In this document: positions 1 through 61,251 of the stretch, in pieces
How positions within the stretch are numbered: position 1 is the stretch's first letter
Layout of the letters: every line of letters begins with the position of its first letter
The notes under the pieces: generated by a model
Databases searched by the model: none
What the model was told of the DNA's origin: nothing
Seen by the model: the letters and a program-made list of their open reading frames with translations, nothing else
NCBI GenBank assembly: GCA_009914755.4
Contig: CP086569.2
Location: forward strand, 8,096,001-8,160,000
Length of the DNA stretch: 64,000 nucleotides
Direction of reading: 5' to 3'
DNA from: the human T2T-CHM13v2.0 reference genome, Homo sapiens
Position numbers and translations under genes: made by a program

Positions 1-3000
1 CAAAATTTCTTTATTGTGGGCATGGTTTGGGTAAAAGGGGAGAGTCACATATCCTAAGTGCTGGGCTCAACAATATGCCAAAATCCTCCTATTGTGGATA
101 CCCAGGCAGGAAGGGAGAGTCACATCACTTAGGTCATGGGCTCAGAGATATGTCCCAACGTCCCAAGTAGGCAGGGTTCAGGTAGAAGAGGAGAGGCATA
201 TCATGTATGTGCTTCCCTAGGAATATGTCACAATGTAACATGTGGGCAAAAACCAGGCAGAAGAGCCACATCATTTGGGTGCTTGATCCCTAGATATGTC
301 AAAGGTGCTCTTAATGCAGCACCCAGCCAAGAGAGAAACATCATACTAGGTACAGATTCTCTGATTATGCCACAATGCTCTATTTGTGTAGGGTTCAAGG
401 AGGGAGTCGCTTAACTGAGATTATAGGCCCAGAGATATATCACAATGTCCACTATGAAGTAGATCTCTGGCAAAAGAATGCTATAACCTATGTGCCTGGC
501 CTAGAAATATGTCACTCTCAAGGTTGGAAGGGCCTAAGCAGCAGAGCAATATAACCTAGGTGATAGGCCCAGAGATATGTCATAATGCCCTCTTTTGGGG
601 ATCCTCTGGCAAAGGAATACCCTTGCCTGTGTGACTTTTCTTGCAATATGTCACTATCCTTCTTTCGTAATATTCTCATTTCAGAGAGAAGACTTACATC
701 AGCTGTGAGGTGGGTGCAGAAACATGTCACAATAATTTTGGCGGGCCTGGCACAGAAAAGTATGTAACATCACCAGGGTGCTAGATCCAGTGATATGTCA
801 CAATCTTTACTGAAAGATATGATCAGGCAGAAGAGTCATATCACCTTGACGTTGGCCTTGGTAGGTATCATAATCCCATATGTGGGCTGGAACAAGTCTG
901 GTGAGTCAAATTACACAGGTGATTGGCAAAGATTTATATCACAATCACACAGCCAGAGCATTTCAAAGATAAGATTTATGATACCACACATGTCCTGTTT
1001 TCATGTGTGACAGTTGCCTTCATTCATGTGAGATTGTAACAGTCCTTACTTTCAGTGTGGTGTGCATACAAGACTCACAATTTTGCCTGGGTGCTGAGCC
1101 CTGCTTTGACTCAGTCTACATAGTCCAAAGACTTTCTAAAATATACGTGAATGTTGTAATCCTTTGTGACCTTTGCACAAGAAGGAGATGCAGGACATGT
1201 CCCTAAACTTAACAATAGGGGTCAAAATATTCCCTATTTTCTAAGTCCACATATGAGAGTCATTATCATGCCCGTGAGCCATGTCTAGGTATATGTTAGA
1301 ATTCCATCTGTGGTTCTGAAGTAGGCAGAACAGCCACATCACCTAAATGCTGAGCTAGAAGCTAGAAGTATTTTGATTTTTTTTTTGTAGGCAGGGTCTT
1401 ATCAGAAATCTCACAAAACTTGTGTGCTAAATTCAGCTTTGTGGAACAATGTGCTTTGTGGCACAATGTCCTTTGTGGGCAGTGTCCAGGAAGGACAGGA
1501 GAGTAATATCACCTAAATGATGGCCTGAAAATATGTGAAAATACCAACTGCTGATAGCACCTAGGAAAGGAGTGATATCATTTGGATGTAGTGTTTAGAA
1601 AAGCTAGAATTACCAAAGGAAGCAGGGTACAGGCAAAAGAGGAGAGTAATGTAACCTAGATGAAGAGTCCAGGAATATGTTACAATCTCCCCTGAGGACA
1701 TTTTTAAGACACCTCAGTCAAACCACCAAGGTGCTTGGCCAATGTATCTGTCAAAAACTCATTTATGAGGTATACTTAGGCAGAACTATTAAATCACTCA
1801 GTAGTTGGGCAAAGGTATATGTCACAATTACCCTTGTGGAAAGGCTTAAGACTAAGAGCCACCATCTTGCGCAAATCCTAGGCTCCAGGCATGTGAGTTG
1901 TTATTAGGCTTCTGTTATAATCTCTGGTATGTGGCATTATATCACTTGTGGCAAGAGGAAAGAAAAAAAAAGAAAGAAAGAAATTCCCACCACCTATGAG
2001 GGTGCAGTTCCAGTGAGATGTTACAATCCACCTTGTGGGAAGGACCCTGGTGGAAGAGTCACATCACCTGGATACTAATTTCAGTGACATATCAAAACCC
2101 CCTCTCTGGGCAGGATTTTGGTAAGAGAGGAGCCTCACTTCACCAAGGCAATTGACCTAGATATATGTCACAATATTTTTTCCGTGCAGTAACAGAGCCG
2201 GAGAGTGGCATCACACTGTTGCTGAGTGTAGCTTTATTTCATAATCACCCTGTGGTCAAGGTACAGGCAAAAGCCAAGAAACATCACCTAGGTGCTGAGC
2301 CAAGTGATATGTTACCATGCTTCCTGTTGTCAGAACCCATAAAGTAGAATCACATCACCTTGGTTCAGTACATAGTTGTGTGTCACAATGCACTGTAAGT
2401 GAAGGGTCAAAGCAGTAGCAGGGAGCCATAATACTTACGTGATAGACCTAGATATAACACAGAATTCTTTTTGTAGGCAGATTTAATGCAGATAACTCAC
2501 ATCACCTGGGTGATGGTTCCAGTGATATATAGAAGTTCCCATTGTAAGCAGAGCCATGAAAGAGGTGATCTATTTCTTAGTTGCTTGTTCCACAGATGGC
2601 ACAATTTCTTCTGTGGTCTGGGCCTAGAAAAGAGAGTCAAATTGCTGATGCACTGGGCAAAGTTACCTTGTCCCAATCACACTCTCAGAAAGGTTCAGAA
2701 ATAAGTTTCACATCACACACAAGTCCTGGTTTTGTTTATGTGAGTCAACTCTTTCTATGAGTTGGGTTGAAGTAAAGAAGTCACAATCTCAACATTGAGG
2801 CAGATCCATGTATAAGATCCCCAATCCCACTTGAAGACTGTGTTCCAGTAGGAGAGTCAGAGCACAACAGTGTGCTGAATCATGGTTCAAATGTTACAAA
2901 ACCATCTGTGAATCAGATTCCTGAATGAGAGTAATTATTTCAACCTTCGACTGCTTTTTATCCGTGAGATTTAGTACCTCATTCCTAGGCCCTGTTCTGT

Positions 3001-5249
3001 GTGAGAATGACAATCATGTCAGCTAGGTGTGCATACAAGGGTCTCATTCGTGCCTCGTTGTTGTTCTTGCTTATGATCCTCTTTGTAACATTAAGACTTT
3101 ATATGATGTACCTGAGTGTTATAATCCTTTGTGAACTTTATAACATTGAAAAACCCAGGACTTTACCCAATGGCTGTGAGACTGGTTCTGAGAGCCAAAG
3201 TATCTCTACTGTCTAAGTCCAGGTATGAGAGTTATTATTATGCATCTGTGCTTAACCAAGCTACATGTTACAATTTCACCTGAGAGCAGGGAAAAGGCAG
3301 GAGAGTCTCATCACCTGGGTGCTGAGCCAGTGATACAGCATAATCTCATTCATAGGCTAGACCTATTCAGAAGAGTCACGTCACCTGGGTATAGCATCAA
3401 ATAATATGTCACCAACCCCACTATAGACAAGGGAGAAGAAAAAGATGAGTCACTCCCCATGGATGCTGTGCTGTGCAATATGTAATAATCCCCTTGCTGG
3501 CAAGCATCTAGAATATGAAGGAGAGTCCCTTCACCTAGGTTTTGCAGTCAGTGGAATGTCAGAACTTTTTTGGTAAGCAGGACCCTGTCAGGAGAGGAGA
3601 TCACATAATCTAGATGTTAAGCCAATCAATATTTCACGGTCTTCTGATGGCAGTGCACAGGCAGGGGCCACAAATTACCTAGCTTACAGGTCCAGAGATA
3701 TGGGATAATTTCCCCTGTTGGCAGGTCCCAGGCAGAACAGTCACATTATTATAATTCTAAACCAGCGGCATATCACAAGACACCCATGTGAAAAAAATTT
3801 AATCCAAAAAGTCACAACACCTGGGTACTAGGCCAAAACCTTTTGTCTCTGATGTTGACACCATTAAATATAAGCTGGGTGTGTATAACAGAGCCACACT
3901 TTTGCATGTTTCCTACCTTTTTTTATGACACTCTACAACATTTGAAGGCTTTATACAGCATCCATGAGAGTGGCAAACCACTCTGACCCCTACTTGCTAG
4001 TATGGATTCACGATCTTACACATTGCCCTAAAACCCAGGTTTTATGTCTTCTGTAGGCTGGATTAAGGATGAGATCCATTATTACTTTTGTGAGCTGGAT
4101 GTAAAAATGGGTCACCATCCCACCTGTGGTGAGATACACATAGGAAGGTCAAATTCCAACTTTGTACTGTAGTTACTTTTTGGAATCAGGACCTTAACAG
4201 TGGGCTTTGGCCATGTGGGATGGAAACATTTGCTTTCATTTAGGTGCATAATCAAGAATCCCAATCTGAACATTTTGCTGGTCCTTGTCTTGAAACTCTC
4301 TGCATCTCCCAAGGAAGGTGTTATAAGTAAGTGTTTTAATGTTCTGTAAGCTTTGTACAAATATGCAACCGAGGACCTTTCATATTGCCCTGAGCCTAGT
4401 GACGAAAGGCAAAATATCTCCTATTGGTTGAATTTCAATATAAGTTTGACCATCATGCCTGTGATCTCAAGTAATGTGTATGTCACAGTCCCATTTGTGA
4501 GCAAAAACTATGCAGCAGGGTAACATCTCTTTGGTGCTGTGCCAAGCAACATGTCACAATACCCTCCCTAGGCAGGGTACAGGAATTAGAGTCACATTAA
4601 ATTGGTGCTGGACTCAGCAATACAAAACCATCTTACCTGTGAAAGAGACCCAGCCAAAAGATAAGAATCAGAACACCTACATGATGGGCCCAGGACATGT
4701 CAAAATACGTTCCGTGGCTCCAGGACAGTCATGAGTCATGATATAATGTCCTCCTCTGGACAGTAAATTAACAGGGTTTGGCCCCAGCAATATACCATAC
4801 CTCTCTGTGTTTGCAGGACTTAGGCAAAAGAGGAACGTAACCTGGGTGCTGGGCCCTGCAATAGGCCAACAATTCTGATTGTGGGAATGGTTTCAGAAAA
4901 TAAGGAGAGTCAAACAACCTGAGTTCTGGGCTCTGCAATCCATTCATTGTAAAAATCAGACAGAAGATGAGTCACTTCACTTTAGTCTTGGGCTCAGAGA
5001 TATATCCCAATGTTCCCAGTATGCAGGTCCCATGAAGAAAAGGACAGTCATATCACTTAGGTGCTTCCGTAGTTGTATGTCACAATCTAACATGTGGGCA
5101 GAAACCAGGCAGAAGAGCCACACCACCTGGGTATGGCCTCAAGCAATATGTCACCATGCCCAATGTAGACAGTTTGCAGAAAATAAAGAAAATCACACCA
5201 CCTGGGTGCTGGGCTCAGAAATATGTAATAATTTCCTTTATTGGTACAA

Positions 5250-5338
5250 TTCAGGACAAAGAGAACATTAATGTCACCTAGGTTTTGCACTCAGTTCAGG
5301 ACAAAGAGAACATTAATGTCACCAAGTTTTGCACTCAC
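5250..5338. repeat. Tandem duplication of 44-45 bp within the satellite
   Basis: ttcaggacaaagagaacattaatgtcacc(t)aggttttgcactca(g/c) occurs twice back to back, differing by one indel. Confidence 0.85.
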
Positions 5339-5908
5339 AATTTCTTCAGTGGACAGGATCCAGGCAGGAGAGCAGAGTCACCTTAGCTATATGCTATATC
5401 TAGCAATATGTTACAGAGTTCCCTATGGAAAAGGCACTGACAGGAGAGACATCTTACCTAGCCAACAGGCACAGAGATATGTGAAAATATCCCCTGTTTG
5501 CAGAGCCCAGGCAGAAGAGTCACAGTATTATGTTCTGATCCATTGATATGTAACATGCCCTTCTGGAAAATAATTTGAACCAAAAAGTCTCAACACTGGG
5601 GTACCAGGTCAAGGATATGACACAATCTCCTCAACTTTAAGGGTGACACCATTAACTGTTACCTAGTTGTGCATATGTCAGTCACAAACTCACGTGGGTG
5701 CTGGCCATTGTGTGACACTCTATACAACCTCTGAGAACTTTAAACAACATCCATGAGAGTTGAAAACTCACTGAGGCCTACATGCTTATATGGACTCATG
5801 ATCTTACATATTTCACTAAGCTCAGATATGACAGTCAACATCTCTCTTACACATGCTGGCTTCAGGGAGGAGACCATTATTAGCCCTGTGAGCTGGGTCC
5901 AGAATTGA

Positions 5909-6335
<427 letters not shown>

Positions 6336-9300
6336 GGTAATAACTTTTACTTTCACCTGAATGTGTTGTGGAGAGTCACAATACTAATATTTTTCTGGAC
6401 CCTCTTATGAAATTGTCTGTACCACCCAAGAAGGTTTTGTAATATAAGTTAGTGTTGTAAAATTCTGTAAGCTTGTTCAACTAAGCAATGAAGGACTTTA
6501 CCTACTGACCTAAACCTAGTGGTGAAAGGCAAAATATATCCAATTGGCTGAATCCCAATAGAAGCATGATCGTCATGCTTTTGAACTGAAGAAATGTATA
6601 TGTCATAACAATTTGTGGACAAAAATCTAGACAGAAGGTTGACATCACTTAGGTGCTACGGCAAGAAACATGATACAATACCTTGTGTAGGGGGGTCATA
6701 GGAAACAGGGTCACATTAACTGGGCTCTGGAGCCAGCAATATGGCACAACCTCACATGGAAGAAATCTAGCAAAGTGAGGAGACCCAAAACACATATGGA
6801 GTGGGCCAAAGATATATAAAAATAGCTTCTGTGGCTCTGGCACAGGCAGGAGAGTCACATCATTAGCATGCTAGGCCCAGCAATATGCTGAAATTCCTTC
6901 TTTATGCATGGCCCATGCATAAGTGTAACATAATCCAGGTGGGGGGACCTGAACTACAGCAAAATTCCTGTTTGTGAGCATTGTTTGGCAACATGATGAG
7001 AGTCACGTTTCCTAAGTACTGGACTCATCAGCATGTCACAATCTTCCCATTGTAAAAGCTTAGACAGAATAAGAAACTCACATCACTTAGGCCATGGGGT
7101 CAAAGATATGACCCAATAACACAAGTAGGCAGTGCTCAGGCGGAAATAGACAGTCATAACACCTAGATGCTTTTTTAGGTATATGTCACAATTTCATCCA
7201 TGTCCAGTCCTTTCATTCAGTTCTTTCTTTCTATCAGCTGGGTGTGCATACAAGACTCACAATTTCACCTGTATGCTGAGCCCTTCTTTGATTCTGCATG
7301 TATAACCCAAAGACTGTAAAATATGTGTGAGTGTTGTAATATTTTGTGACCTTTGTAGAAGAAGGTGATATGGGATATCACACATGTCCCTAAATGTAGT
7401 TATAATAGTCAAAATATCCTCTATTGTCTGAGTACACATGTAAGAGTCATTATCATTTCTGAGAGCCATGCCTAGGTATCAGTTACAACATTCTCTGTGG
7501 TTATAAAGCAGGCTGAATAGTCATATCGCCTAAATTCTGGACCAAACATATTCCAATATTCTCTTTGGAGGCAGGGTCGTGTCAGAAATGTCACATAACT
7601 TGTGTGCTAGATACAGCTCTGTGGCACAATGTTATTTGCGGGCAGTGTCCAGGCAGAAGAGGAGAGTCATATCACCTAAATGTTGAGCCCCAAAATATGT
7701 CACAATGTCTCCTATTGGCAGGACACAGACAAAATTGTCATATCATTTGGATATAGTGTTTAGAAATGCTACAATTACCAAAGCGAGCTGGGTACAGGCA
7801 GGAGAGGGGAGCCATGTAACCTAGGTGATGTGTCCAGAAATATGTTACAAAATCCCCTGAGGACATTGTTAAGATAGCAAGAGTCAAATCACCAAGGTGC
7901 TTGACCCAGGTGTTTGTCAAGATCTCATTTGTGGGTGATACCTAGGCAGAATTATTAAATCTCTCAGGAGCTGGGCAAAGGTACATGTCACAATTACACC
8001 TGTGGAAAAGTTTAAGAGTCACCATACTGCACATGTCTTGGCTCCAGGCGTATTAGCTGTTATTAGGCTTTTGTTATGGTCTCAGGTATATGGCACAATA
8101 TCACCTCTGGTCAGAGAGAATGCAAGAAAGTCACATCACCTACATGGGTGTGGCTCCATTGAGATATCACAATCCACCCTGTGGGCAGAACCTTGGCAGA
8201 AAAGTCACATCACCTGGCTGCTGGTTTGAGTGACATCAAAGCCCCATTGTGAACATGACTTTGGAAAGAGGGGAGACTCAGTTAACCTAGGCAATTGACC
8301 TAGGTATATGTCACAATGGCCCTTATGTGCAGTACCAAGGCTGGAGAGTGACCTCACATTGGCCCGTTGGTTCAGCAATATGTCACAATCGGCCTGTGGT
8401 GAGGGCACAGGCAAAAGTGAAGAAATATCACCTTAGGTTCTGAGCTGAGTGATATGTTACAATGCTTCCTGCTAGAAGAATGCAAAAAAGAGTATCTCAA
8501 CACCTGGATGAAGTGCCCAGTTAAGTGTCACAATTCACTGTAACTGAAGGGCCAAGGCAGTACAAAGGAGTCACATCACTTATGTGATGGACCTAGATAT
8601 AGGACACAATTTTCTTTGTAGTCAGGCTTCAGGCAGATAATTTACATCACCTTGGTGATGGTACCAGTAATATATAAAAGTACCCTTTTTAGGCAGACTC
8701 AAGGAACATGTTATATATTGCTTAGGTGCCTGTTCCACATATGGCACAATTTCATTGTGGTCTGAGCCTAGAAAAGAGAGTCAGATTATTTATGTGCTGG
8801 GCAAAGTTACCTGCCCCAATCACATGCTAAGAAAGGTTCAGAAATAATTTTCACAACCCACACAAGTCCTGGTTTCATGTATGTGAATCAATCCTGTCTA
8901 TGACTTAGGCCAAAGTAGAGGAGTCACAATCTGAACAATGGGCAAGATCCATGTATAAGAGCCCCAATGACTTATTGTGTCAATGAGATTGTGTCATATC
9001 ACTGGGCTTAGTAGCCCATTGTTAGAACTTTTGTTTAAATTGTTTCCCATGTGTGCATTATAACACTCTTCTGCCTGGGTACTGCAAACAAGAAATATTG
9101 TCACATGTCTCTGAGCCTATCTGCTAGGTGATTTGTCTGTTTTAGCTGTGCTTTGCTCCCAGGGAACATTGTGACATCTTTTAATGTGGCACCTAGGAAA
9201 TGTGACTTCTCTTTTCTGCCTAGGTCCTGTGCACTAAAGAAATATGTACATAGTGCTGAATGCAAAACTTAAATAATGCAACTCTCCTCTTTTTTTCTGG

Positions 9301-10688
9301 AGTCTGAAAAAAGAGGGCATTATTAAATATTGCTGAGGCTAGCACCTTAATGCTGTATCCAGATGATATAACTCTTCTGACTTGGCACTGTCTGCAAAAG
9401 AGATTATAATGTATTCTGAGCTCAAAATCCTGGTGATGAGACTCTTCTTCCTTAGTTCTGCCCACAGGAGAAATAGTGACATATACATGAGTTCAGCTCA
9501 CATGTACAAATATAGCTATCATACCTGGACCCATAAAGAAGAGACATTTGGACTCTCAAAACTGGTCGTATGTCCATAAGTAAAGCAATGGGTCTACTAA
9601 TTTTATAAAGTTCACAGAGGACTATGACACTCAGGCATATGATATAAATCCTGAGTGAGTCAGGATTTATACTCAATGTGACTACTATTGAGTATAAAAC
9701 CTAGGTGATATATCCACAGGGACAGCAAGCCATTGCTATTGTGACTCTTGGATAAACACTCAGCTGGCACATTTATGTATCACTGGGACCAGCATCCAGG
9801 TGATGTGAATTCTTTGCCTGAGTGCTGCCTAAAAAGAGCATTTTGGCTTATATCTAGATCAATCAAGTAAGTGATGTGACTCTCTTCTACTGCCTTCACC
9901 CTGCACTTATGGTGCATTGAACACATAACTGGGTTCTGCACCCAGGTGATGTGACTCTCCCTTTTGGGTTCTGCCAACAAGAAGCTTTGTAACATATCAC
10001 TTTGCTCAGCACCTAAGTCATGTTTCTTCTATCTTATCTCGACCTGATCACAGGGGAGACTGTGACATATTGATAAGTCCAGCACCAAGGCGTGGTCACT
10101 TTCACACCTTGGTTTTGCACATAGCAGCCATTGTGATGTGTATCTATTCCAATTGCCTAGGTTACATGAGCCTCCTCTCTTTCTTAATCCTTGCCAACAG
10201 GTGGAATTTTGATATATCACTAAAACCAGCATCCAGATGATATGATTCTTCTTCCAGGGTCCTGCCCACAGATGGATTGTGACATCTCACTGGACCAGCA
10301 CCCACCCAGGTGTGGTGACCTTCCCACTTGCTTGCCACCCACAGGTGATATTGTGCCATGTACTTAAGATGAGATAAGAGGACTAATGATGACTCTTAAA
10401 TCCGGAGACAGGTCATATGCAAGATGGTGACTCCCAATCCTGAAGCATTTCACTAGTGTGATTGTGACATATACATTTGCCCAGCTTCTGAGTGATTTCA
10501 TAATCCTGCCTAGGTGTAGTCCACAGGTGAGATTCACACATATACTTCAGCTGGTCACCACGGTGATTTGACTCACCTGTCTTAACAATATCCTCAGAAA
10601 GTATTGTAATATGTCTCTGAATCCATCATCTAGGTTACCTGTCTCTCCTCCTCTGCCTGGACCCTGCTTCCATTGGGGATTGTAGCAA

Positions 10689-10774
10689 TATTTTTCCTTT
10701 TTCTTTTTTCTTTTTGTCACCTAGGTTGGAGTGCAGTGGTGCAATCTCAGCTCACTGCAACCACCGCCTTGGAG
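10689..10774 (-). mobile_element. Short Alu-derived fragment (right-arm piece plus T-rich tail)
   Basis: gtcacctaggttggagtgcagtggtgcaatctcagctcactgcaaccaccgcc resembles the Alu core gtcgcccaggctggagtgcagtgg...ctcactgcaagctccgcc. Flanked by a ttgtagca duplication (10680-10687 and about 10777-10784). The homologous site at about 20680-20700 lacks it. Confidence 0.55.
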
Positions 10775-12599: not shown

Positions 12600-13319
12600 T
12601 TTACATTGCTTCTATTCAGAGGGATGATGATCAAATTTAAATTGTGATTACACCAATAGTTCATATTTTGCCTCTCGTCGCTATGTATATGGCAATAGGT
12701 AATGTTATGAGTTGTATATTTGTACAAAACTTAGAGAATGTTACAACTCTAACTCAGATTCTATAAACTTACTGGGTGGTACACAGAGTTTTATAACAGG
12801 GTCCAGCAAAAGATTAAGATTGTGATTCTTGATTACATATGCAGATGAGAACAAATGTTGTCATCATCCCACATTTACAAAAGCCACTGTTGAATTCCTG
12901 AATCTAACAAGTAAATAAGGTACAAAGATGGAATTTTGACTTTCATATGTGGATCTTGCTACAGATGAGATGGTGACTTATTTCTGGACACAGATCACAG
13001 GCATAATAATGAGTCTCCCATCTCAACCCAGCCTATAAGGGAGATGTTGACTCATAGCTGGGTTTAAAGCAATATATAAGATTGTGAGTCACTATGAGCA
13101 TGTATGCCTCAGAGTGGATTGCTACTCTTATGTATGTTGCATAAAGCTTTCCAATGTTGTAGAATGTGTCATACGGTGAGCCAGAAAACACATGAGATTG
13201 TCACTCTCATATACACATCAAGCTAGAAGTTAAAGATGTCACACTAAAAAATGAAGAGATTGTGTCCTATCTCTAGGCCTAGTACTCCTAGGCGTTGAGA
13301 ATTTTTTGCTTAAATTCTC
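12600..13319 (-). repeat. HOR block A (representative copy, ~700 bp non-monomeric block)
   Basis: Recurs as described above. It is the reverse complement of 3850-4470 (aggcaaaatatctcctattgg...catcatgcctgtgatc versus cacaggcatgatgatcaaac...gccaataggagatattttgcct). Confidence 0.55.
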
Positions 13320-14526: not shown

Positions 14527-14709
<183 letters not shown>

Positions 14710-14712
14710 CTA

Positions 14713-14820
<108 letters not shown>

Positions 14821-14934
14821 TTAGGATTGACTTGGAGATGTAGGCTCTTTTTTGGTTCCATATGAACTTTAAAGTAGTTTTTGCAATTCTGTGAAGAAAG
14901 TCATTGGTAGCTTGATGGGGAGGGCATTGAATCT

Positions 14935-15977
<1,043 letters not shown>

Positions 15978-17830: not shown

Positions 17831-17873
17831 TATAACTAGAATAACCAATGCAGAGACCTCCTTAAAGGAGCTG

Positions 17874-25502: not shown

Positions 25503-25534
<32 letters not shown>

Positions 25535-33469: not shown

Positions 33470-33785
<316 letters not shown>

Positions 33786-51400: not shown

Positions 51401-54400
51401 CAAAATCTCACACGCATAAGCAGTCAAAGCTTGAAATTGTTACTGTCATACATGAATCTGATCCACAGACGGTTTGGTAACATTTAAACTGTGATTTTCC
51501 AGATCTGTGGTGCTTTGCCTGTCCTACTGGAACACAACCTTCAATGTGACTGGGGCTCTTACACATGTATCTTGCCATTGTTGAGATTATGACTCCTTTA
51601 CTTCGACCCAACTCAAAGGAGATGTTGACTCTCATACCCGAAGCCAGAAGTTGTGTGAGAGTGTAAAATTTATTTCTGAACATTTTTGAATGTGTGATTG
51701 TGAAGTTTGACTTTCTCCAGCATCTGAGTATTTTGACTCTCCTTTCTAGGCCCAGAGCCTATAAATTGTGACATAAGTGCACCAGCACCTAAGCAATGTA
51801 TAACAACTTTTTGGCAATGCAACTAGGGGCACTTTTACATATCACTGGTACCAGCAACCAGCTGATGTGAAATCTTGGACTAAACCCTGCCTACAAAGAG
51901 GATTATGGCTTTTATCTAGATCCATCATGTAAATGGATGTGAGTTCCTTCTACTGCCTTGGCCCTGCACTTATGGTGTATTGTGATGTATAACTAGGTAC
52001 TGCACTTAGGTGATGAGAGACTTTTTTTGAGGGGAGTTCTGCTATTAAAAAGCTATGTAACATATCACTTGACTCAGGCCCTAGGTGATGTTTCTTCTCT
52101 CCTGCCTTGGCCCTGACCACCAGAGAGATTTTGACATATTATTGAACCCAGCACCAAGGTGAGGTCACTCTCCTGCCTTGATCTTGCACAGAAGGGCCAT
52201 TGTGACATATGTCAAGGCAAATTGCCTTTGTGTGATCTGTTTTCTCTCCTGCCTAAGCCCTGCCAGGAGGGAGGATTTAAATATTTCACTTAAACCAGAA
52301 TCTAGGTGATTGACTCTTCTCCAAGAGTCCCACCCACAAAGAGAATTGTGACATTTCACAGGACATGCATCCACATGTGATTTTCCTTTCCTTTCTTCTC
52401 CCTCCCCACAGGTGATATTGTGCCATATACTTGAGAGAAGATAAAAGGCCTAATAGTGACTCTTGTACCAGGAACCAGGACACTTGCCAGATTGTGACTC
52501 TCAACCCAAGCCTGAGCCTTTCTACAGGTGTTATTGTGACATTTGCTTTTGCCAAGCTCCTGAGTGATTTACTAATCCTATTTATAGCCCAGATATGACA
52601 TTTTTACATATAACTGGGACAAAACCTTGGTGATTTGACTTTTGTCTTAATAGGATCATCCAAAGGGGTCATATCTCTGGACCTATCATCTAGGTTTTGT
52701 GACTTTCCCGACTGAACCCTGATTAAAATGAAGAGTTTAGCATTTCTATGCACTACATCCAAATGATATGACCCTTGTGCCTGGGCTGTTACAACAGGAG
52801 GCATTGTGATGTATCTCTGGACCCATCATTTAGGTGATATGACTCTCCTCTCCTGCCTGGACACAGTACACAAGGGACATTATGCGATAGAGCTGGGCAT
52901 AACACCCAAGTTCTGTGACTTCTCTGCTAGGGCCTTGGCTACAAAGAGAATATTGGAATATTTCTGGCTTAGGATTTATGCGATGTGTCATCCTGCCTGT
53001 TTAGTAACCACAGAGGGCATGGTGACATACATACCTAGGTATAGCTAGCAGGCTTGATAATGACTCTCATATGTGGACACAGCCAACAGGAGAAATTTTG
53101 ACTCTTACAACTAAGTTTAGAGACATGAGTGAAGCAAAGCATCTCTTACTGTTAACAAAGTCACATAAGATTACAACACTCACACATTCTTTATAACACC
53201 TTTATGTTGTACAGAGAGTGTCATAAAAGGGCCTAGCACAAAGAGCAAATTGTGAGTCTCATATAACCACCCAGCTGACTGTAAATACTTTCACCATCAC
53301 AGATGGATAAAGTCTACTGTTCTACATGAAAACAAGACACATGTGGTATTGTAAATCTAATCCCTAGAATTTTATTTTATCATGACTGTGATATAAAACT
53401 TTTCAGTGCACTTTTTTGATTTCACTCTTCAGACTGGTTACAGCCTACATATGGGATTTTGATATCTACCTGGACCAACGTTGAAGTTTTGTGACTGTTC
53501 TGCCTGGGTCCTGCTGTCAGTAAGAATTGTGACATCATTGGATCCAGTACTTAGGTGATGTTACATTCTTGCCTGACCCATGCCCCCAGACATCCTTTTG
53601 ACATATTATGTTGTCCATCACGGAGATTATGTAATTTTCCCCACTGGAATGGTTCCTGCACACAGGGCAAGGGAGTGACATATGCATAGATCAGGTAAAC
53701 CGGTAATGATACTTTTTTTTTGCCTAGGCCATGCACAAAAGACAAGATTATGACATATTACAGGACCTGTTATATAGGTGATATGGCTCTTCTGCTTGAA
53801 ACATGCCCACTTGAATAGTGACATATTTCTAGACCAGGAACAAATGTGATGGTATTCTTTTGCCAAGGCCATGCTTTCAGGAAGGTTATGTTACATATCT
53901 CTGGGACTATCACCTAGGTGATGTGAATTCCTTCATGGGCTTCCCACATGGAGCATTTTATCATAAGGGTGGAACCTGCTCCTAGGTGATATAACTCTCT
54001 GGTCTTGGTCCATTACTAAAGGGGACTTGTGGATATCTCAGGACCCAGGAAAGGTGATGTGCCTCTTCAGCCTGGTTTTTTCCCACATATTAAATTTTGA
54101 CCTATACCTAAAGAAGAACCTAGGTGATATGGCTCACTTTTTTTTTTTAATTTTTTAATTTTCTTGCCTGAGCCCTGCCTATTAATGACATTGGGTCATA
54201 TCTTTGAGTCCACGACCTAAGTAATTTGACTCACTTCTTCTGTCTGGACTTTTACAGTGGGAGAATTGTGACATATTGAGAAGCCCTGTACTTAGGTCAT
54301 GTGACCCATCTTCTTGCTAAAGAGTGCCCAGGAATAGGACTTTTGCTCTATTTCAGGACCCAACACCCAGATAATGTTACTCTTCTGCCTAGGTCATATA

Positions 54401-57400
54401 TAAAGAGGAAATTTTGGCATATTGCTTTGCCCAGCACCCTAAGGATATGACTCTGCTCTCTATGCCAGGGCTACAGAAGGTACTTTGACATATCTTTGGC
54501 TTATTCTGTAGGTGTTTTGGCACTAATCAGTTTGCTAGGTTTCTTCCATGTGTTTTTGTGTAATATTGTAGGTTCCAGCCCTAGTTAATGTGACCTCATT
54601 TCTTAGGCCCTGCTTAGATAGGGCACTGTGATATATTGCTTGGCACAGCACCTTAATGATATTAATCTTGGGCCTAGATTTTTGCCCACAAATGGGATTA
54701 TGACATGTAACTTGCTTCAGTTCAAAGGCAGGATGATCAAGCTTATTGTGGGATTAAGCCAATAGGATATATTTTGCTTCTCACCCCTAGGTTTAAATCA
54801 ATATTTAAGGTCCTCCATTTCATGTTTGTTCAAAGATCACAGAATTTTACAACACTAACTTATATCCAGCATTTACAAAGCTTAGTTTTGAGGTTTTGAA
54901 TCGAACAAGTCAATACAACCCAAAGTTTGAATTGTGACTCTCATAAGTGAATCTGACTAAAGGTGAGATGGTGAATCATTTCTGCACCCAGCTCACAGAT
55001 CTAATAATGATTTCAACCCTGATGCCAGCCTATAGAAGACATGTTTTCTGACATACCTTGGTTAGGGCAATATGTAAGATTATGAGTCCATATAAGTATA
55101 TAGGCCTCAGAAAGTTTTCAACTCTCATGCATGTTGTATAAAGTTTTCAAATGTTGCAGAAAGTATCATACAATGGCAAGCACACTCAGGGGTTTGTGAC
55201 TGTCATATACACAACTAGAAAACAGATAATGGTGTCAAAGGTAAGATCACGAGATTATGTCATAACAGCAGATATTTTCACCTCTTGCTGAGCCTATTGG
55301 CTAGGTGACATTTCTCTCCTGCCAGTGCCTTGCTCACAGGTGACACTGTGACATATTGCTGGATTTAGCAACTAGGTAATGTGACTCTCCTCTTGTGCAT
55401 GGATCCTGTTCACTGAAGAAATTGTGACATACCACTGAGCACAAATTTTAGGTAACATGGCTCCCTTCTTTGTCGTGGGCTCTGCCAAAAGAGGGACTTA
55501 TTACATATTATTGAGCTCAGCATGCTTGTGGTGTAATTCTTTTTTTTTTTCTTTGAACATGTTTACATTGGGCATGGTGACATATTACCTGAGGCTGTAC
55601 TCAGGTGATGTCGGTGTGGGGGTCTTCTTCCTGGTTTTTCTACCCACATGTTAGATTGTGACATATAACTAGAAAAGTACATAGGTGATATGACTCTTCT
55701 TTTCTACCTGAGCCCTGCATAAAGGAGACTGTGGACAGTGGGTTATATCTCTGAGCCCAAGACCTGAGTGAAGTGACTCTTTTCTCCTGCCTAGTCTTTA
55801 CAATGGGATGATTGTGACATATTGCTGACCCCAGCACTCAGGTTATTAGACAAACAAAAATTTTGACGTATTGCAGGGCCCAGCATGCAGATAACATTAC
55901 TATTTTGCCTCTGTCCTGCATATATGAAGAATTATGGCATATTGCTGGGTACAGCACCCTAATAATGTGACTCTCATGCCTGTCCCAAAGCCATAGAAGA
56001 TATTTTGACATATCCTGGGCTCATTCTGTTGGCATTTTGGTTCTCACTTCTAGGTTTTTTCTTTTTTCACATATGGGATTTTGTCATATTGCAGGGTCCA
56101 AAACTCAGTTAACGTGACCCTAATTCCTATATCCTTCTTAGAGAGGACATTATGACATGATGCTTGACACAGAACTTAAGTGATGTTATCCTCCTGCCTA
56201 CTTTTTTGATCACAAATGGGACTCTGTCATATACCTTACTTCAGCTCACAGGTAGGATGGTCAAACTTATCCTGGGATTCAGCCAATAGGAGATATTTTG
56301 CCTTTCATCACTAGGCTTAGGGCAATAGATGAGGTCCTGTGTTTGTTTCATATTTGTATCAAGCTCAAAAACTTTACAACAGTAACTCATAATGAATACA
56401 CTTCTTGGGTTGTGCAGAGACTTTTATGACAGAGATCAGCAAAAGTTTAGATTGGGACTCTCCATTAGACACCCAGGTGAAAGCAAATATTGTCACCATC
56501 TCACATGTATAAAGACCACTATTACATTCCTGAGTCTGAAAGTCAATAGAGCACAAAGTCAGAATTGTGATCTTCATGTGTGGATCTGGCCACAAATGGG
56601 ATGGTGACTCATTTCTGGATCCAGCTCACAGGCAAAATAACAGGTCTAATCCCTAAACCCAGCCTAAAGAAGATATGTTGACTATTATATCTGTGTTTAG
56701 GACAATATGTAAAAATTCATACAAGCATGTAAGCCTCAGAATGGCTTGCAACTCTCATGAATACTGTATAAAGCCTTCAAAGGTTGTAGAGTGTCACACA
56801 TACAGTGTGATCTAGGAAACATGTGAGCTTGTGATTCTCCTATTCACACCCAGCTCACAGTGAATCTTGGAGTTCTGAAAGACCAGGAGTTCTGCATATT
56901 ACTAGGCCTAGTACCCAAATGTTGAGACTTTTAGGCTTAAATTCCTTCCTATAGATTAACCATGACATATCACCTGGTTAAAATCATAATAATGTGACTC
57001 TTCTGCATGGACCCTGAAAACAGGGAATATTTTTGCATATCTCTGGGCCTTTAAGCTCGGTCATTTGTCTCTCTTATTCATGCCCTGCCCCCAGAGGACA
57101 CTGTGAAATATCGTTTTACTTAATATTTAGAAAATGTGACTATCCTCTCCTGCCTGGGCCCTGCTCACCATAGAAGATGTGATATACTGCTGACTGCAAA
57201 ACCTAGGTGATGTGGGTCTCCTGCATATTGTAGACTCTTCCAAGATAAGAAATTAATACATATTGTAGAGCTGAAAAGAATTGGTGGAACCCTCTCTTTT
57301 TCTTCTTTCCTGTCCATGTGGGCTTCGTGACATACTATTTGAAGCTGTACCCAAGTAATATGACTCTTCTGAGTAGGCCCATCCAAAAAATGAGTATATA

Positions 57401-60400
57401 CTGTATCACTGGTTTGGCACCCAGATGATGTGATATGACTCTTCTGATTAGCCCCAGCCTACAGGTAAGACTATACTACATAACTGGCTCAGCACCCAGG
57501 TGATGTGACTCTCCTGGCTTTTTTCTGCTCACAGGTCAAGTTGTGACATATACCAGGTTTAAGCACACATGCACAATAATAATTCTCATACCTGGACCCA
57601 TCCAGTGGAGACAACTGACTCTCACAGCCTGTCTCATGGCCATTGGTAAAGTCCTGTGTTTTTCACTTGTATAAATTTCACGAACGATTATAACACTCAA
57701 GTATATCATATAAAGCCTTAATGATACAAAGATTGTAATAACAGAAACCAGCAACGAAGTGAGAATGTGACCCTTCAATGCACACCTAGCTGACATCATT
57801 GACATTCTCACACATGAACAGGGCCTAGGAATGAGGTAATAAATCTCACACACAAAAAGCAGTCAAAGGTTGAAATAATTACTCTCATAAATGGATCTGA
57901 TTTATGAGTGGTTTGGTAACATGAACCATGATTCAACATGCCTGTAGTGCTGTGACTCCCCTACTGGAAAATGATGTTCAAGTGGTATTGGCACTCTTAT
58001 ACATGGATCTTGCTTATTGTGGAGATTGTGACTGCTCTACTTCAACCCAACTCACAGAAAAAAATTTCATCACATTCACAAAAGAAAGACTTGTGTAAGT
58101 TGTGAAAGTTATCTCCAAATCTTTCTGAGAGTATAAAAAGGAGAGGTAACTTTGCTCAGCACATGAATAATCTGACTCTCTTTTCTAGTCCCAGACCACA
58201 GATTAAATTGTGCGATATGTGAAACAAGCACCTAAGCAATGTATAATTGCTTCCAGAGCCCCCACTGCAAAGGGCCCTTTTATGTATCACTGGGACAATC
58301 ACCCAGGTGATGTAAATTATCTGCCTGAAAACTGCCTACAAGGAGAATTGTGTCTTAAATCTACCCTGACCACAGGGAAATTGTGACACATTACTGCACC
58401 CAGCACTAATTTGAGGTCTCTCTCCAGCCTTGGTACTGAACATTAGGGTCATTGTGACATATACCTGGGCCAGTTGCCTAGGCTAAGTGAGTCTCCTCTC
58501 TTGCCAAAGTCCTGAACACATACTGGATTTTAATATGTCACTGAAAGCAGCATCCAGGTGATGTGACACTTCTGCCAGGGTCCTGCCCACAAAGTGTACT
58601 TTGACATTTTACTGGACCCACACCCACATAGTTGATGTGAAATTCTTGCCCTCTCTGGCCACAGGTGATATTGTGCCATACATTTGAGAATATAACACAA
58701 CCTAATGTTCAGGATGGTGACTCTTATTCTTAAACCTTTCAACAAGCCTAATTGTGACCTAAACCTTTGACCAGCTTCTGAGTGATTTAATAATTCTTCC
58801 TAGGTATAGTCCACAGATGAGGTTTTCACAAATACCTGAGCCAAGTATCTTGGTGATATGAATGTTCTATCTTAAAAATGTCCTTGGGGGAATTTTAACA
58901 TATTTCTGGATCTATTATCTAGATAACATTACTCTCCCTTCTGCTTTTACCCTGCTTAATTGTAGTTTTTCTAAACACTGCATCCAAATGATATTAATAC
59001 CTTGCTTGTTGGCTTTCCCAAAGGGAAGCATTGTGACTTATTTTGGAGCCCATCATTTAGGTGATATGACTCTCCTCTTCTCTCTGGACACTGCCCACAA
59101 GGGAAATTATGCCACAGAGCTGGACACAACACAGAAGTTATGTGACATTTCTAACAGGATACTTACTACAAAGAGAATACTGGAATATTTCTAGCCCAGC
59201 ATTTAGGTGATGTGGCCATTCTTCCTGCTTCATAACCACAGAGGAAATTGTAACATATATTTAGGCACAGGTCACAGGAGTGATAATGACTCTCATATGT
59301 GAACTCAGCCAATAGGGGATATTTTGACTCTTATAACTATGTTTGGAGACATGCATGACGTCCTACATCAGCTGCTTGTACAAACATCACAAAAGTTCAT
59401 AACACTCACATATATTTTGCTAAGTCTTTGGGTTATACAGACGCAGTCAAAACAGGGCTCAGCACGTAGCTGATGTGACTTTCTGCTTGGCCCTGCCCAC
59501 AGGGAGCATTGTGACATAAGTGTGGAACTTGCACAGGGAGCATTGTGACATAAGTGTGGAACTTGCACCTAGGTGATGTAACTCTCTTGACTGGGTACTT
59601 TTCTAAAGAGGGCTTGTGAATATCTCAGGACCTAGGACCAGGTGATGTGGTTCTTCAGCCTGGATTCTGCCCACATGTTAAATTGTCTAGGTATATGTAA
59701 TATACCTAAACAATAGGCATATTGTGACATATTGAGCCCAACACTTAGGTAATGTGACTTTCAACTTGTTGCTGAACAATGCCCATGAACAGACATTTTG
59801 CCATATTTTATGGCTCTGCAACCAGATAATGTTACTCTTCTGCCTAGGTCATGTATAAAGAGGGAGTTATGGCATATTATTGGCACAGCACCCTAATGAC
59901 ATGATCTCCTACCTGTGCCAGAGCCATAGAAAGTGTATTGACATATTTTTGGCCCAATCTATAGGTGTTTTTTCTTTCATCACTTTGCTTGCTTTCTTCC
60001 ACATGTGGTTGTTTCATTTACTAAGCTCCATCCCCCAGTTAATGTGACCCTCTTTACTAGCCCCTGCCTAATGAGGGCATTATTGTTCTGCACAGAACCT
60101 AAGTGATGTTAATGTTCTGCCTAGGTATTGCACACACAAAAAAATGAATTATGACACGTACCTTCCTTCAGTTCAAAGACAAAATGATCAAGCTTATAAT
60201 GGGATTCAGCCAATAGGAGACATTTTTCCTCTCATGAGTAGGTTTAGGTCAATAGGTAAGGTCTTTCATTGGATATTTATACAAAGCTCACAGAAGTTTA
60301 TAGAGCTAACTCATATCATAAATACTTCTTGTGTGGTACAGAGAGTTTCATAACATGACCCATCAAAATGTTAAGATTGTGACTCTCAACTACACATTGA

Positions 60401-61251
60401 GGTGAAAGGAAAAGTTGTGTCCATCTTATATTCACAATGCCTTTTGTTGAGGTCCTGATACTAACAAGTGAATACAGTAAAAAATTTGAGCTGTAACTTT
60501 CATAAGTGAATCTGGCCACAGGTGGGATGGTGACATTTCTAGACCCAGCTCATAGGCATAATAATAATCTCATCCCTGAAACCAGCATATAGGAGAGATG
60601 TTGACGGTCATGCCTTGGTTTAGTAAAATATGGAATATCATGATTCTATAGCAGCATATATGCCTCAGAGTGGTTTGCAACTCTCATTCATGAAGTATAA
60701 AGCCTTCAAATGTTGTAAAGGGTCATGCAGTGGCCCAGGAAACATGTGAGATTGTGACTCTCATATACACAGCCTTTGTATGTGTCTTTGAGTGTCACAC
60801 TCAAAGACAAGGAGACTTGGCATATTACTAGGCATAGTGCCCAGGTGTTAAGACATTTTGGCTTAAATTTCTTCCCATGGGTGCATTGTGACATATTGCT
60901 GGGTTAGAATCATAAAAATTTGACTCTTCTGCTTGGACCCTGCCAAAAGAGGATAGTGTTACATATCTCTGGGCCTATAAGCTTGGTGATTTTTCTCTCT
61001 TGCCTGGGCCCTGCCCCCATGAGACATTGTAAAATATCGTTTGGCTTAACATCCAGATCATGTTACCCACCTCTCCTGTCTGTTTTCTTCTCACCAAATA
61101 AATTGTAACATACCGCTGATTGCAAAATCTCGGTAATGTGACTCTCCTTTATATTCTAGACTTTGTCAAGAGGGGACTATTACATATTGCAGAGCCCAGC
61201 ACCTAGGTTGAGGTACTCTCCTCGTATTATCTTTTTCTATCAATAGCAGTC
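48420..61251 (-). repeat. Second block of the same satellite with the same higher-order structure, inverted orientation
   Basis: 48560-50600 aligns by eye to 11150-13320 at about 85-90% identity over 2 kb. Contains blocks C (48420-48800), A (49900-50600), B (51150-51770), C (53160-53440), A (54700-55250, with a ~130 bp internal deletion), A (56200-56950), B (57560-58200), truncated C (59330-59460) and A (60160-60870). Array ends at the L1 tail at 61252. Confidence 0.6.
59501..59568. repeat. Perfect 34-bp tandem duplication inside a truncated C block
   Basis: agggagcattgtgacataagtgtggaacttgcac occurs twice back to back. Confidence 0.9.

What the first reader, a model, noticed from the sequence alone, without database searches (positions are those of the whole stretch)
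1..61251. Composite higher-order repeat of about 6.0-6.4 kb built from 68-bp monomers plus three conserved non-monomeric blocks in fixed order C-B-A-A'-C
Three long blocks recur in the same order and spacing in both orientations. In the + part the order is C 940, B 2700, A 3850, A' 5620, C 7230, B 8850. In the inverted part the order is C 21150, A 22540, A 24270, B 26100, C 27985, then C 48420, A 49900, B 51150, C 53160, A 54700, A 56200, B 57560, C (truncated) 59330. Block-to-block distances give a period of about 6.2 kb in the + part, about 6.4 kb at 21150-27985 after removing the 547-bp (GAA)n and Alu insertion, and about 6.0 kb at 53160-59330. One unit, 48420-53160, is only about 4.7 kb and lacks the second A, a unit-length variant. 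The blocks still carry degraded satellite motifs such as atgtcacag and gtcaccatcc. They look like ancient monomers that are no longer homogenised at monomer level but are conserved at HOR level. I do not recall this particular HOR architecture from the classic beta-satellite descriptions, so it may be a less-characterised subfamily, or simply a pericentromeric or acrocentric array only recently assembled.
Basis: partly seen in the sequence, partly recalled or inferred. Interest (0 to 1): 0.55.

Follow-up and report, generated by a model that had tools for sequence, protein, structure and literature searches.

The report
Old decayed beta-satellite higher-order repeat
The window holds a real but very old, no longer homogenised multi-kilobase repeat built from degenerate beta-satellite-like 70-bp units, broken up by an inversion and by L1 and Alu insertions. 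It is most likely one of the beta-satellite blocks long known in the human 19p12 zinc-finger gene cluster, so it is ordinary rather than new.

Summary

- **Monomers.** About 40 kb of the window is diverged ~72-bp beta-satellite-like monomers. They run on + at 1-8968, and on - at 9065-34263 and 48421-61251.
- **Blocks.** Blocks A, B and C are not three unrelated sequences. All carry one 257-bp module, which I call X. X is made of degenerate monomer and half-monomer pieces with a 38-bp period.
- **Module types.** The 36 X copies fall cleanly into four position-specific types: XC, XB, XA1 and XA2. Identity is about 70% within a type and about 56% between types.
- **Unit.** The order is XC-XB-XA1/XA2-XA1/XA2-XC. 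A full unit is about 6.2-6.6 kb, with 3.4, 4.6 and 4.85 kb variants.
- **HOR signature.** Random or adjacent monomers are 56% identical. Each monomer's best partner is 81% identical and lies more than 1.5 kb away.
- **No special conservation.** Between units, monomer runs (73%) and X modules (71%) are equally conserved, so the blocks are not specially conserved.
- **Age.** Units differ by K80 0.23-0.28, CpG is depleted (o/e 0.11), and L1s and Alus with target-site duplications interrupt the array. This is a fossil array, not an active or newly assembled one.
- **Other loci.** Paralogous units exist at other loci, up to 88% identical.

The best fit is the 19p12 KRAB-ZNF cluster beta-satellite blocks (Eichler 1998). 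The map position could not be tested. Interest is low.

The parts
1..8968 (+). Array I: beta-satellite-like monomers in + orientation. It holds one complete unit (XC 1032 to XC 7226) and is cut by the window start.
   Evidence: Monomer profile coverage, tiling, unit painting.
8969..9064 (.). Orientation-switch (inversion) junction. Block B is cut at about its base 125 and followed by monomers in - orientation.
   Evidence: B query 1-125 ends at 8978. First confident - monomer at 9065. Sequence.
9065..13323 (-). Array II, left part, - orientation (XB 9494, XC 10960, XA2 12616, XA1 12991).
13324..18502 (-). L1 insertion into array II, with target-site duplication GCTTAAATTCT and an inverted 5' segment. 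Not part of the repeat, but it dates the repeat.
   Evidence: ORF2 and ORF1 fragments. TSD read. Satellite homology is continuous across it: 13318|18503 matches 50598|50588.
18503..34263 (-). Array II, right part, - orientation: a full unit, 3.4-kb variants and the end of the array.
25351..25891 (-). (CTT)84 tract plus antisense Alu, inserted between XA1 24678 and XB 26104. Absent from paralogous units.
   Evidence: TRF, sequence, painting.
6032..6335 (-). Young AluY-lineage insertion with 13-bp TSD GGTAATAACTTTT, between XA1 5640 and XA2 6336.
   Evidence: Sequence, Alu matches.
33470..33779 (-). Older Alu in the XA2-XA1 spacer of the last unit of array II.
48421..61251 (-). Array III, - orientation: one 4.6-kb unit, one 6.2-kb unit and a partial unit. 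It is paralogous to 10960-28237 of array II.
1032..1279 (+). X module, type C
2717..3002 (+). B-specific 5' part (about 285 bp of very degenerate monomers), upstream of XB.
3003..3251 (+). X module, type B
3851..4097 (+). X module, type A1 (block A)
4224..4467 (+). X module, type A2 (block A)
5640..5895 (+). X module, type A1 (block A')
6336..6588 (+). X module, type A2 (block A')
7226..7466 (+). X module, type C
9494..9769 (-). X module, type B
10960..11205 (-). X module, type C
12616..12868 (-). X module, type A2
12991..13243 (-). X module, type A1
19052..19298 (-). X module, type B
20987..21232 (-). X module, type C
22535..22789 (-). X module, type A2
22910..23162 (-). X module, type A1
24300..24553 (-). 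X module, type A2
24678..24936 (-). X module, type A1
26104..26341 (-). X module, type B
27986..28237 (-). X module, type C
29650..30015 (-). Hybrid module: the B-specific 5' part (29841-30015) joined to an A2-type X (29650-29881). This is the junction of the 3.4-kb tandem duplication 26461-29819 / 29847-33233.
31408..31659 (-). X module, type C
33065..33317 (-). X module, type A2
33791..33990 (-). X module, type A1
48421..48676 (-). X module, type C (edge of array III)
49912..50153 (-). X module, type A2
50277..50527 (-). X module, type A1
51140..51370 (-). X module, type B
53044..53298 (-). X module, type C
54718..54966 (-). X module, type A2
54989..55237 (-). X module, type A1
56242..56500 (-). 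X module, type A2
56622..56865 (-). X module, type A1
57563..57797 (-). X module, type B
59268..59483 (-). X module, type C
60169..60425 (-). X module, type A2
60546..60774 (-). X module, type A1

Best explanation
**What it is.** This is a fossil higher-order repeat array of a highly diverged beta-satellite (Sau3A/BSR-like) sequence in a hominid, probably human, genome. It is most likely one of the beta-satellite blocks that lie between KRAB zinc-finger genes in 19p12.

**Inferred history, from the hierarchy of identities.**
1. A ~70-bp monomer, itself two ~35-bp halves, formed tandem arrays.
2. A stretch of about 3.6 monomer-equivalents was remodelled into a 257-bp variant module (X) with a 38-bp period.
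3. Duplication of X-bearing segments produced four diverged versions (XC, XB, XA1, XA2). These became fixed positions of a ~6.6-kb unit of roughly 75 monomer-equivalents.
4. That unit was amplified by unequal exchange in register at the multi-kb scale.
5. Out-of-register exchange between paralogous modules gave the 3.4, 4.6 and 4.85 kb unit variants. The B5'/XA2 hybrid and the collapse of A/A' to a single A are examples.
6. A two-unit, ~11-kb segment was duplicated, giving array II and array III.
7. One end was inverted. Homogenisation stopped and all parts decayed equally.
8. L1s and Alus then inserted, and whole blocks were copied to other loci.

**Shown here:** the anatomy, the module types, equal decay of all parts, the insertions with target-site duplications, and paralogues elsewhere.

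**Inferred only:** the order of events, the mechanism (unequal crossing-over or NAHR), the 19p12 location, and any role. A role as a heterochromatic spacer or recombination substrate for ZNF-cluster expansion is Eichler's model and was not tested here.
For: - **Monomers.** Profile consensus ATATGTCACAATTCCCTCTGTGGGCAGGGCCCAGGCAGGAGAGTCACATCACCTAGGTGCTGGGCCCAG. There are 281 near-full monomers with a median spacing of 72 bp.
- **HOR signature.** All-pairs identity is 0.562 and adjacent-pair identity 0.556. The best partner is 0.814 identical and lies more than 1.5 kb away in 99% of cases.
- **Multi-kb self-similarity.** 67-80% identity on both strands. Painting with a reference unit gives collinear units.
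- **X modules.** 36 full copies cluster into exactly four position-specific types. Identity is 0.69-0.72 within a type and 0.55-0.59 between types. Order and spacings are regular.
- **X derives from monomers.** It scores 36.5 bits against at most 3.9 in shuffles, and has a 38/77/115 periodicity.
- **Equal decay.** Monomer runs 0.729, X modules 0.714.
- **Old age.**
  - K80 is 0.23-0.28 for the closest units and 0.33-0.36 for A vs A', against 0.10-0.13 among the three L1s.
  - GC is 0.413 and CpG o/e 0.11.
  - TRF finds no monomer array.
- **Later insertions.** L1 with a TSD, AluY with a TSD, Alu+(CTT)n.
- **Unequal-exchange junction.** 29650-30015.
- **Paralogous units at other loci.** 11 metagenome-borne contigs are 73-88% identical and none is identical.
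- **Literature.** The 19p12 ZNF cluster is interspersed with beta-satellite blocks (PMC3018141; bioRxiv 10.1101/589531; PMC2671837). My own recollection of the Eichler 1998 abstract is of ~25-kb inverted beta-satellite blocks with a symmetrical higher-order structure, arising about 50 Myr ago.
Against: - The map position was not testable. No human reference was available, and exact-ORF look-ups found nothing.
- No ZNF exon or zinc-finger motif lies in the window.
- The canonical beta-satellite consensus used for comparison comes from memory.
- The Sau3A site (GATC) is present in only 34 of 281 monomers, and the conserved GATCAGTGC block (within 2 mismatches) in 21 of 281.
- The period is 72 bp, not 68.
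- Eichler 1998 could not be read, so how much of this anatomy it already describes is unknown.
- With nine XC copies and variable unit lengths, 'satellite-type HOR amplification' and 'a few stepwise segmental duplications' cannot be cleanly separated.
Confidence: 0.75

Rival explanations
1. It is a few stepwise segmental (tandem and inverted) duplications of an already dead, monomeric beta-satellite tract. On this view the multi-kb periodicity is a by-product of ordinary duplication and not satellite-type higher-order amplification.
For: - There are only 9 XC copies in 40 kb, and unit lengths vary from 3.4 to 6.5 kb.
- The closest pairs all have similar K80 of 0.23-0.28, compatible with a handful of events.
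- One duplication junction can be seen directly at 29819/29847.
- An ~11-kb two-unit segment is duplicated as a whole.
Against: - The same four module types recur in the same order in three arrays and in contigs from other loci.
- A and A' are an older tandem pair inside every full unit (K80 0.33-0.36).
- This nesting of periods is what repeated unequal exchange produces.
- The distinction is partly semantic.
Confidence: 0.15
2. It is a composite satellite in which foreign DNA, such as an LSau element (as in LSAU-BETA composites) or an ancient transposon fragment, is interspersed with beta-satellite monomers.
For: - Beta-composite arrays with LSau are a known class, and beta-satellite units can include ancient TE fragments (bioRxiv 10.1101/2021.07.12.452052; 10.1101/2021.07.12.451456).
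- Parts of X (consensus positions about 76-128 and 162-196) do not align to the monomer profile.
Against: - The X consensus aligns to the monomer profile at three places, scoring 36.5 bits against at most 3.9 in 200 shuffles.
- X has a 38-bp period equal to half a monomer.
- X decays at the same rate as the monomers.
- X is not GC-rich. This rests on my reading of the consensus and was not computed. LSau is, as I recall, GC-rich.
- No LSau or Dfam reference was available, so identity with LSau was not directly tested.
Confidence: 0.07
3. It is an active or recently homogenised pericentromeric or acrocentric beta-satellite HOR of a poorly characterised subfamily, visible only in new complete assemblies.
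For: [quoted passage not shown] The window has an orientation switch.
Against: - Units are only 68-80% identical.
- There is no TRF-detectable monomer array.
- GC is 41% against about 52% reported for beta satellite, and CpG o/e is 0.11.
- Old L1s and Alus and a 14-kb TE nest lie inside the region.
Confidence: 0.03

Closest known systems
Beta-satellite blocks of the 19p12 KRAB-ZNF gene cluster (Eichler et al., Genome Res 1998;8:791)
   Same: - Highly diverged beta-satellite embedded among euchromatic TEs.
- Tens-of-kb blocks with both orientations present.
- A complex higher-order structure.
- Early-primate age. K80 of about 0.24 here fits the ~50 Myr I recall from that abstract.
- Many paralogous blocks in the genome.
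   Different: No difference has been demonstrated. The location is unverified and no ZNF gene lies in the window. The paper could not be read, so I cannot say whether it describes the 257-bp X module, the four module types or the 6.6-kb unit.
Canonical beta satellite (Sau3A family; pB3/pB4 HORs on chr9 and the acrocentrics; Waye & Willard 1989)
   Same: - Related monomer sequence: the ATATGTCACAAT and ACATCACCT(R)GGTG motifs, and 55 of 72 positions matching the recalled consensus.
- Multimeric higher-order organisation.
   Different: - Period about 72 bp, not 68.
- Sau3A site in 12% of monomers instead of nearly all.
- GC 41% against 47-52%, and CpG almost gone.
- HOR copies are 68-80% identical rather than near-identical.
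- Interrupted by TEs.
LSAU-BETA / beta-composite arrays (T2T annotation; Hoyt et al., Altemose et al.)
   Same: Beta-satellite monomers alternate with longer non-monomeric blocks in a fixed multi-kb unit.
   Different: Here the blocks are themselves degenerate beta-satellite half-monomers. They do not appear to be GC-rich LSau/D4Z4 sequence, and no DUX4-like ORF is present.
Divergent or monomeric alpha-satellite layers flanking active centromeres
   Same: - The same life-cycle stage: a former HOR array that is no longer homogenised.
- Riddled with inversions and TE insertions, and decaying uniformly (for the alpha-satellite description).
   Different: A different satellite family, and probably a location in a gene cluster rather than a centromere flank.

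Membership tests
Beta satellite (Sau3A / BSR) | Tandem monomers of about 68 bp | tested here: met
   281 near-full monomers tile about half of the satellite part. Median start-to-start spacing is 72 bp, range about 64-79. This is slightly longer than 68.
Beta satellite (Sau3A / BSR) | Monomer sequence homologous to the canonical consensus | tested here: inconclusive
   55 of 72 aligned positions are identical. However, the reference consensus was written from memory, and no Dfam/Repbase copy was available.
Beta satellite (Sau3A / BSR) | Sau3A site (GATC) in nearly every monomer, and the conserved GATCAGTGC block (10.1101/589531; PMC2671837) | tested here: not met
   GATC occurs in 34 of 281 monomers. 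GATCAGTGC within 2 mismatches occurs in 21 of 281. The local consensus reads GCTGGGCCC at that place.
Beta satellite (Sau3A / BSR) | GC-rich (47-52%) with dense CpG | tested here: not met
   GC is 0.413 and CpG o/e 0.11 over 40.6 kb. This is compatible with long decay of a once CpG-rich sequence, which is an inference.
Satellite higher-order repeat (HOR) organisation | Monomers resemble their positional counterparts in other units more than their neighbours | tested here: met
   Adjacent monomers 0.556. Best partner 0.814, lying more than 1.5 kb away in 99% of cases. Four position-specific X types.
Homogenised (active) HOR array | Unit copies near-identical (about 95-100%) | tested here: not met
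   Unit pairs are 67-80% identical, and the closest K80 is 0.23.
LSAU-BETA composite | LSau / D4Z4 elements interspersed with beta-satellite | not testable with these tools
   No LSau reference was available. Indirectly, the interspersed X module is monomer-derived, and no long ORF other than L1 fragments is present.
19p12 ZNF-cluster beta-satellite block (Eichler 1998) | Large block with beta-satellite arrays in inverted orientation and a higher-order structure | tested here: met
   The + arm is 1-8968 and the - arm 9065-34263, which is about 19.2 kb after removing the L1, two Alus and the (CTT)n tract. The same unit occurs on both arms. The symmetry is imperfect: the junction cuts block B.
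19p12 ZNF-cluster beta-satellite block (Eichler 1998) | Lies in chr19p12, next to the 3' end of a KRAB-ZNF gene | not testable with these tools
   No human reference could be searched. There is no zinc-finger motif in the 64-kb window, and four exact-ORF look-ups found nothing.

The most novel reading that the evidence does not exclude
The detailed anatomy may not be captured by existing descriptions or repeat libraries. That anatomy is a 257-bp, 38-bp-period 'X' module derived from half-monomers, fixed as four diverged position-specific types that punctuate a ~6.6-kb unit and act as the substrates of unequal exchange. If so, the module types would be a ready-made set of markers for reconstructing, block by block, the order of duplications that built the primate 19p12 KRAB-ZNF cluster.
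Probability: 0.25. Interest if true: 0.3.

Novelty: already known. Interest (0 to 1): 0.15.

Why it matters
As a discovery it matters little. It is an old, decaying satellite block of a kind published in 1998 and routinely masked as diverged beta satellite.

It has some practical value.
- The four X-module types and the unit variants give a compact way to align and date such blocks. Those blocks are thought to have mediated the expansion of the largest human KRAB-ZNF cluster.
- The window also shows how a former higher-order array looks after roughly 50-80 Myr without homogenisation. All parts have decayed equally, and the periodicity is visible only at the multi-kb scale.

Tried and rejected
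- **TRF** at score >=200 found only the (CTT)n tract, so the monomers are too diverged for it.
- **Rfam:** no RNA family in the window.
- **Eichler 1998, Waye & Willard 1989, Cardone 2004 and the published Altemose 2022** are not held in the library. The preprints of the T2T papers were read instead.
- **Full-text search for a printed beta-satellite consensus** (GATCAGTGC / ATGTCACAAT) returned only unrelated primer sequences.
- **Two malformed calls** returned errors.
- **Locating the window through exact ORF products** (four ORFs) found nothing on record.
- **A degenerate family-level DNA pattern for X or the monomer** failed, because the copies share too few exact words. An exact XC 20-mer was used instead. 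It gave 12 metagenome contigs (one a chance hit, L006) and nothing in bacterial or archaeal genomes.
The stop-free stretches look non-coding and I did not pursue them.
- **A perfect palindrome around ~9226:** considered and rejected. The arms are not mirror images, and the junction simply truncates block B.
- **The L1s at 13.3 kb and 61.25 kb as one duplicated insertion:** considered and rejected. They sit about 345 bp apart in the homologous frames and are far less diverged than the satellite.

Full report
**What is in the window**

The window is primate DNA. It contains L1 ORF1 and ORF2 fragments and several Alus. A monomer profile was built from anchor-delimited seeds and refined twice. Its consensus is ATATGTCACAATTCCCTCTGTGGGCAGGGCCCAGGCAGGAGAGTCACATCACCTAGGTGCTGGGCCCAG.

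The profile tiles the following stretches:
- 1-8968 on the + strand
- 9065-13323 on the - strand
- 18503-34263 on the - strand
- 48421-61251 on the - strand

The interruptions are:
- An L1 at 13324-18502, flanked by the target-site duplication GCTTAAATTCT. Satellite homology runs straight across it: 13318|18503 corresponds to 50598|50588.
- A (CTT)84 tract plus antisense Alu at 25351-25891.
- A young AluY-lineage element at 6032-6335 with a 13-bp target-site duplication.
- An older Alu at 33470-33779.
- A 14-kb nest of L1, Alu and LTR-like sequence at 34264-48420.
- An L1 from 61252 to the window end.

**Checking the observation**

TRF finds no 68-bp array, and the autocorrelation signal at lag about 71 is weak. 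The monomers are therefore very diverged. Self-BLAST nevertheless gives many collinear matches of 1-3.5 kb at 67-80% identity on both strands.

Painting the window with the unit 1045-7224 as reference recovers the following:
- Full units at 21924-28211 and 54089-59465.
- Units lacking the second A at 11957-13361+18503-21205 and at 49256-53259.
- A 3.4-kb tandem pair, 26461-29819 / 29847-33233.

The gaps in the monomer tiling of the + part lie at 931-1290, 2717-3264, 3835-4478, 5633-6597, 7208-7481 and from 8807.

**What the blocks are**

Searching each block against the window showed that C, B and A hit one another. The shared part is a 257-bp module, X. An iterated profile finds 36 full copies with E-values of 1e-36 to 1e-61.
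- Average-linkage clustering splits them cleanly into four groups that correspond to position in the unit: XC (9), XB (6), XA1 (10) and XA2 (11).
- Mean identity is 0.69-0.72 within a type and 0.55-0.59 between types.
- Block A is XA1, a ~122-bp spacer, then XA2.
- Block B is a ~285-bp B-specific part followed by XB.
- Block C is XC with a short leader that resembles the B-specific part.

X is not foreign DNA.
- Its consensus aligns to the monomer profile at three places, for a summed score of 36.5 bits. The maximum in 200 dinucleotide-preserving shuffles was 3.9.
- Its autocorrelation peaks at 38, 77 and 115 bp, which is half a monomer.
- By inspection, the monomer consensus itself reads as two ~35-bp halves (xxxxGTCACAxx...GGGCCCAG). 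This would explain the 35-38-bp lags seen.

**The unit**

In satellite orientation the order and spacings are regular. All spacings below are edge-to-edge gaps between X modules.
- XC to XB: about 1.65-1.7 kb, with 15-17 recognisable monomers plus the B-specific part.
- XB to XA1: about 0.6-0.7 kb, with 8 monomers.
- XA1 to XA2: about 122 bp.
- XA2 to the second XA1: about 1.15 kb, with 13-14 monomers.
- XA1 to XA2: about 122 bp.
- XA2 to the next XC: about 1.3-1.4 kb, with 15-17 monomers.

A full unit is therefore about 6.6 kb.

| XC-to-XC interval | Observed (bp) | Corrected for insertions | Note |
|---|---|---|---|
| 1032 to 7226 | 6194 | 5.9 kb without the AluY | A2-to-C spacer shortened to 637 bp |
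| 10960 to 20987 | 10027 | 4848 without the 5179-bp L1 | single A |
| 20987 to 27986 | 6999 | 6458 without the (CTT)n+Alu | full unit |
| 27986 to 31408 | 3422 | – | 3.4-kb variant |
| 48421 to 53044 | 4623 | – | single A |
| 53044 to 59268 | 6224 | – | full unit |

Together with the following long unit, it forms a two-unit segment of about 11 kb present in both arrays II and III. The best-partner pairs are X10960/X48421, X12616/X49912, X19052/X51140 and X20987/X53044.

At 29650-30015 the B-specific part is joined to an A2-type X. This is the junction of the 3.4-kb tandem duplication. It shows directly that the paralogous X modules served as sites of out-of-register exchange.

**Is it a higher-order repeat, and are the blocks conserved?**

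Across 281 near-full monomers:
- All-pairs identity is 0.562 and adjacent-pair identity 0.556.
- Each monomer's best partner is on average 0.814 identical.
- That partner lies more than 1.5 kb away in 99% of cases.

This is the higher-order signature. However, in alignments between paralogous units the monomer stretches are 72.9% identical and the X modules 71.4%. The blocks are not preferentially conserved. They only stand out because they lack the monomer motif.

**Age and state**

- The closest unit pairs have K80 of 0.23-0.28.
- A against A' inside a unit gives 0.33-0.36.
- The three L1s differ from one another by 0.10-0.13.
- The satellite part has GC 0.413 and CpG o/e 0.11.

The amplification is therefore roughly two to two-and-a-half times older than the L1 insertions. 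With commonly used primate neutral rates (my assumption: 1.5-2.2e-9 per site per year) it falls at some 55-80 Myr. This is the same order as the ~50 Myr I recall from the abstract of Eichler et al. 1998. Nothing suggests ongoing homogenisation.

**The orientation switch**

The switch at 8969-9064 cuts block B at about its base 125 and joins it to inverted monomers. It is a simple inversion breakpoint, not the centre of a perfect palindrome.

**Relatives elsewhere**

An exact 20-mer from XC occurs at 4 sites in the window, or 6 with up to 2 mismatches, against 0 expected. It found 12 contigs in public metagenome assemblies and none in bacterial or archaeal genomes.
- Eleven of the twelve are collinear with window units at 73-88% identity. 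None is identical, and L006 is a chance hit.
- They are presumably host contamination.
- They show that the unit exists at other loci, with its own unit variants.
- Some outside copies are closer to a window unit than any two window units are to each other: L004 at 87.6% over 1.1 kb and L012 at 86.9%, against about 80% at most within the window.

This is what is expected if whole blocks were copied to new loci after the internal amplification, as in the model of co-duplication with ZNF gene cassettes.

**Comparison with what is known**

The monomer consensus matches the canonical beta-satellite monomer, as I remember it, at 55 of 72 positions. The two textbook hallmarks are largely lost:
- A Sau3A site in nearly every unit (bioRxiv 10.1101/589531): present in only 34 of 281 monomers.
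- The conserved GATCAGTGC block (PMC2671837): present in 21 of 281 monomers.

GC is well below the 47-52% reported.

The T2T papers describe simple beta-satellite arrays and beta-composite arrays with LSau. I could not test identity of X with LSau, but its monomer-derived structure argues against it.

The best match in the literature is the set of beta-satellite blocks interspersed in the 19p12 KRAB-ZNF cluster. These come from Eichler et al. 1998, as cited in PMC3018141, PMC2671837, bioRxiv 10.1101/589531 and PMC8125562. That paper is not in the library. The window holds no zinc-finger motif, and the map position could not be obtained. The 19p12 assignment is therefore an inference, which I put at about 0.65-0.7.

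**Verdict**

- It is wrong in suggesting conservation of the blocks, and wrong in suggesting a newly assembled or poorly characterised active array.
- It is a fossil array of a type known for decades.
- Interest is low. The only mildly new element is the explicit X-module anatomy, which may or may not already be described.

Noticed in passing
window 25351-25891: A (CTT)84 tract (255 bp, 90% matches), which is (GAA)n on the other strand, abuts the T-rich tail end of an old antisense Alu. It looks like an A-tail-derived GAA expansion of the kind known from other Alu tails. It is absent from all paralogous units.
   Followed up: partly
window 6032-6335 and 33470-33779: A young AluY-lineage element has intact CpGs and a 13-bp target-site duplication GGTAATAACTTTT. 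It lies between XA1 and XA2 of block A', immediately upstream of XA2. An older, unrelated Alu lies between XA2 and XA1 of another unit. This suggests a preferred L1-endonuclease target there. The young Alu may be polymorphic.
   Followed up: partly
window 13324-18502: An L1 insertion with target-site duplication GCTTAAATTCT. ORF2 fragments lie on the - strand, but an ORF1 fragment lies on the + strand at 17874-18500. This is a 5'-inverted (twin-priming type) insertion.
   Followed up: partly
window 13362-16831, 35840-37879, 61252-63896: Three L1 copies of similar age (K80 0.10-0.13 to one another) lie in or beside the arrays. The copies at 13.3 kb and 61.25 kb sit about 345 bp apart in homologous unit frames, so they are independent insertions and not a duplicated one.
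   Followed up: yes
window 34264-48420: A 14-kb nest of transposable elements (L1, at least three Alus, LTR-like GC-richer sequence at about 43.8-46 kb, and an AT-rich stretch at 41.4-43.8 kb) separates arrays II and III. The satellite does not resume in register: an A block lies on the left and an XC on the right. About 2-3 kb of unit is therefore missing or replaced.
   Followed up: partly
monomer consensus (whole satellite part) and X consensus: The ~70-bp monomer reads as two ~35-bp halves sharing GTCACA...GGGCCCAG. The X module has a 38/77/115-bp periodicity. I do not know whether an internal dimeric structure of the beta-satellite monomer has been described.
   Followed up: partly
unit alignments, e.g. 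7227-8968 vs 31646-29906: Transitions and transversions are about equally frequent between paralogous units (for example 0.107 against 0.096), and also in one L1 pair. An excess of transitions would be expected in CpG-decayed DNA. This may be an alignment artefact at about 75% identity.
   Followed up: no
L006 (Ga0114905_1062146): This contig matched the XC 20-mer exactly but has no other similarity to the window. It is a chance match in an unrelated metagenome.
   Followed up: yes
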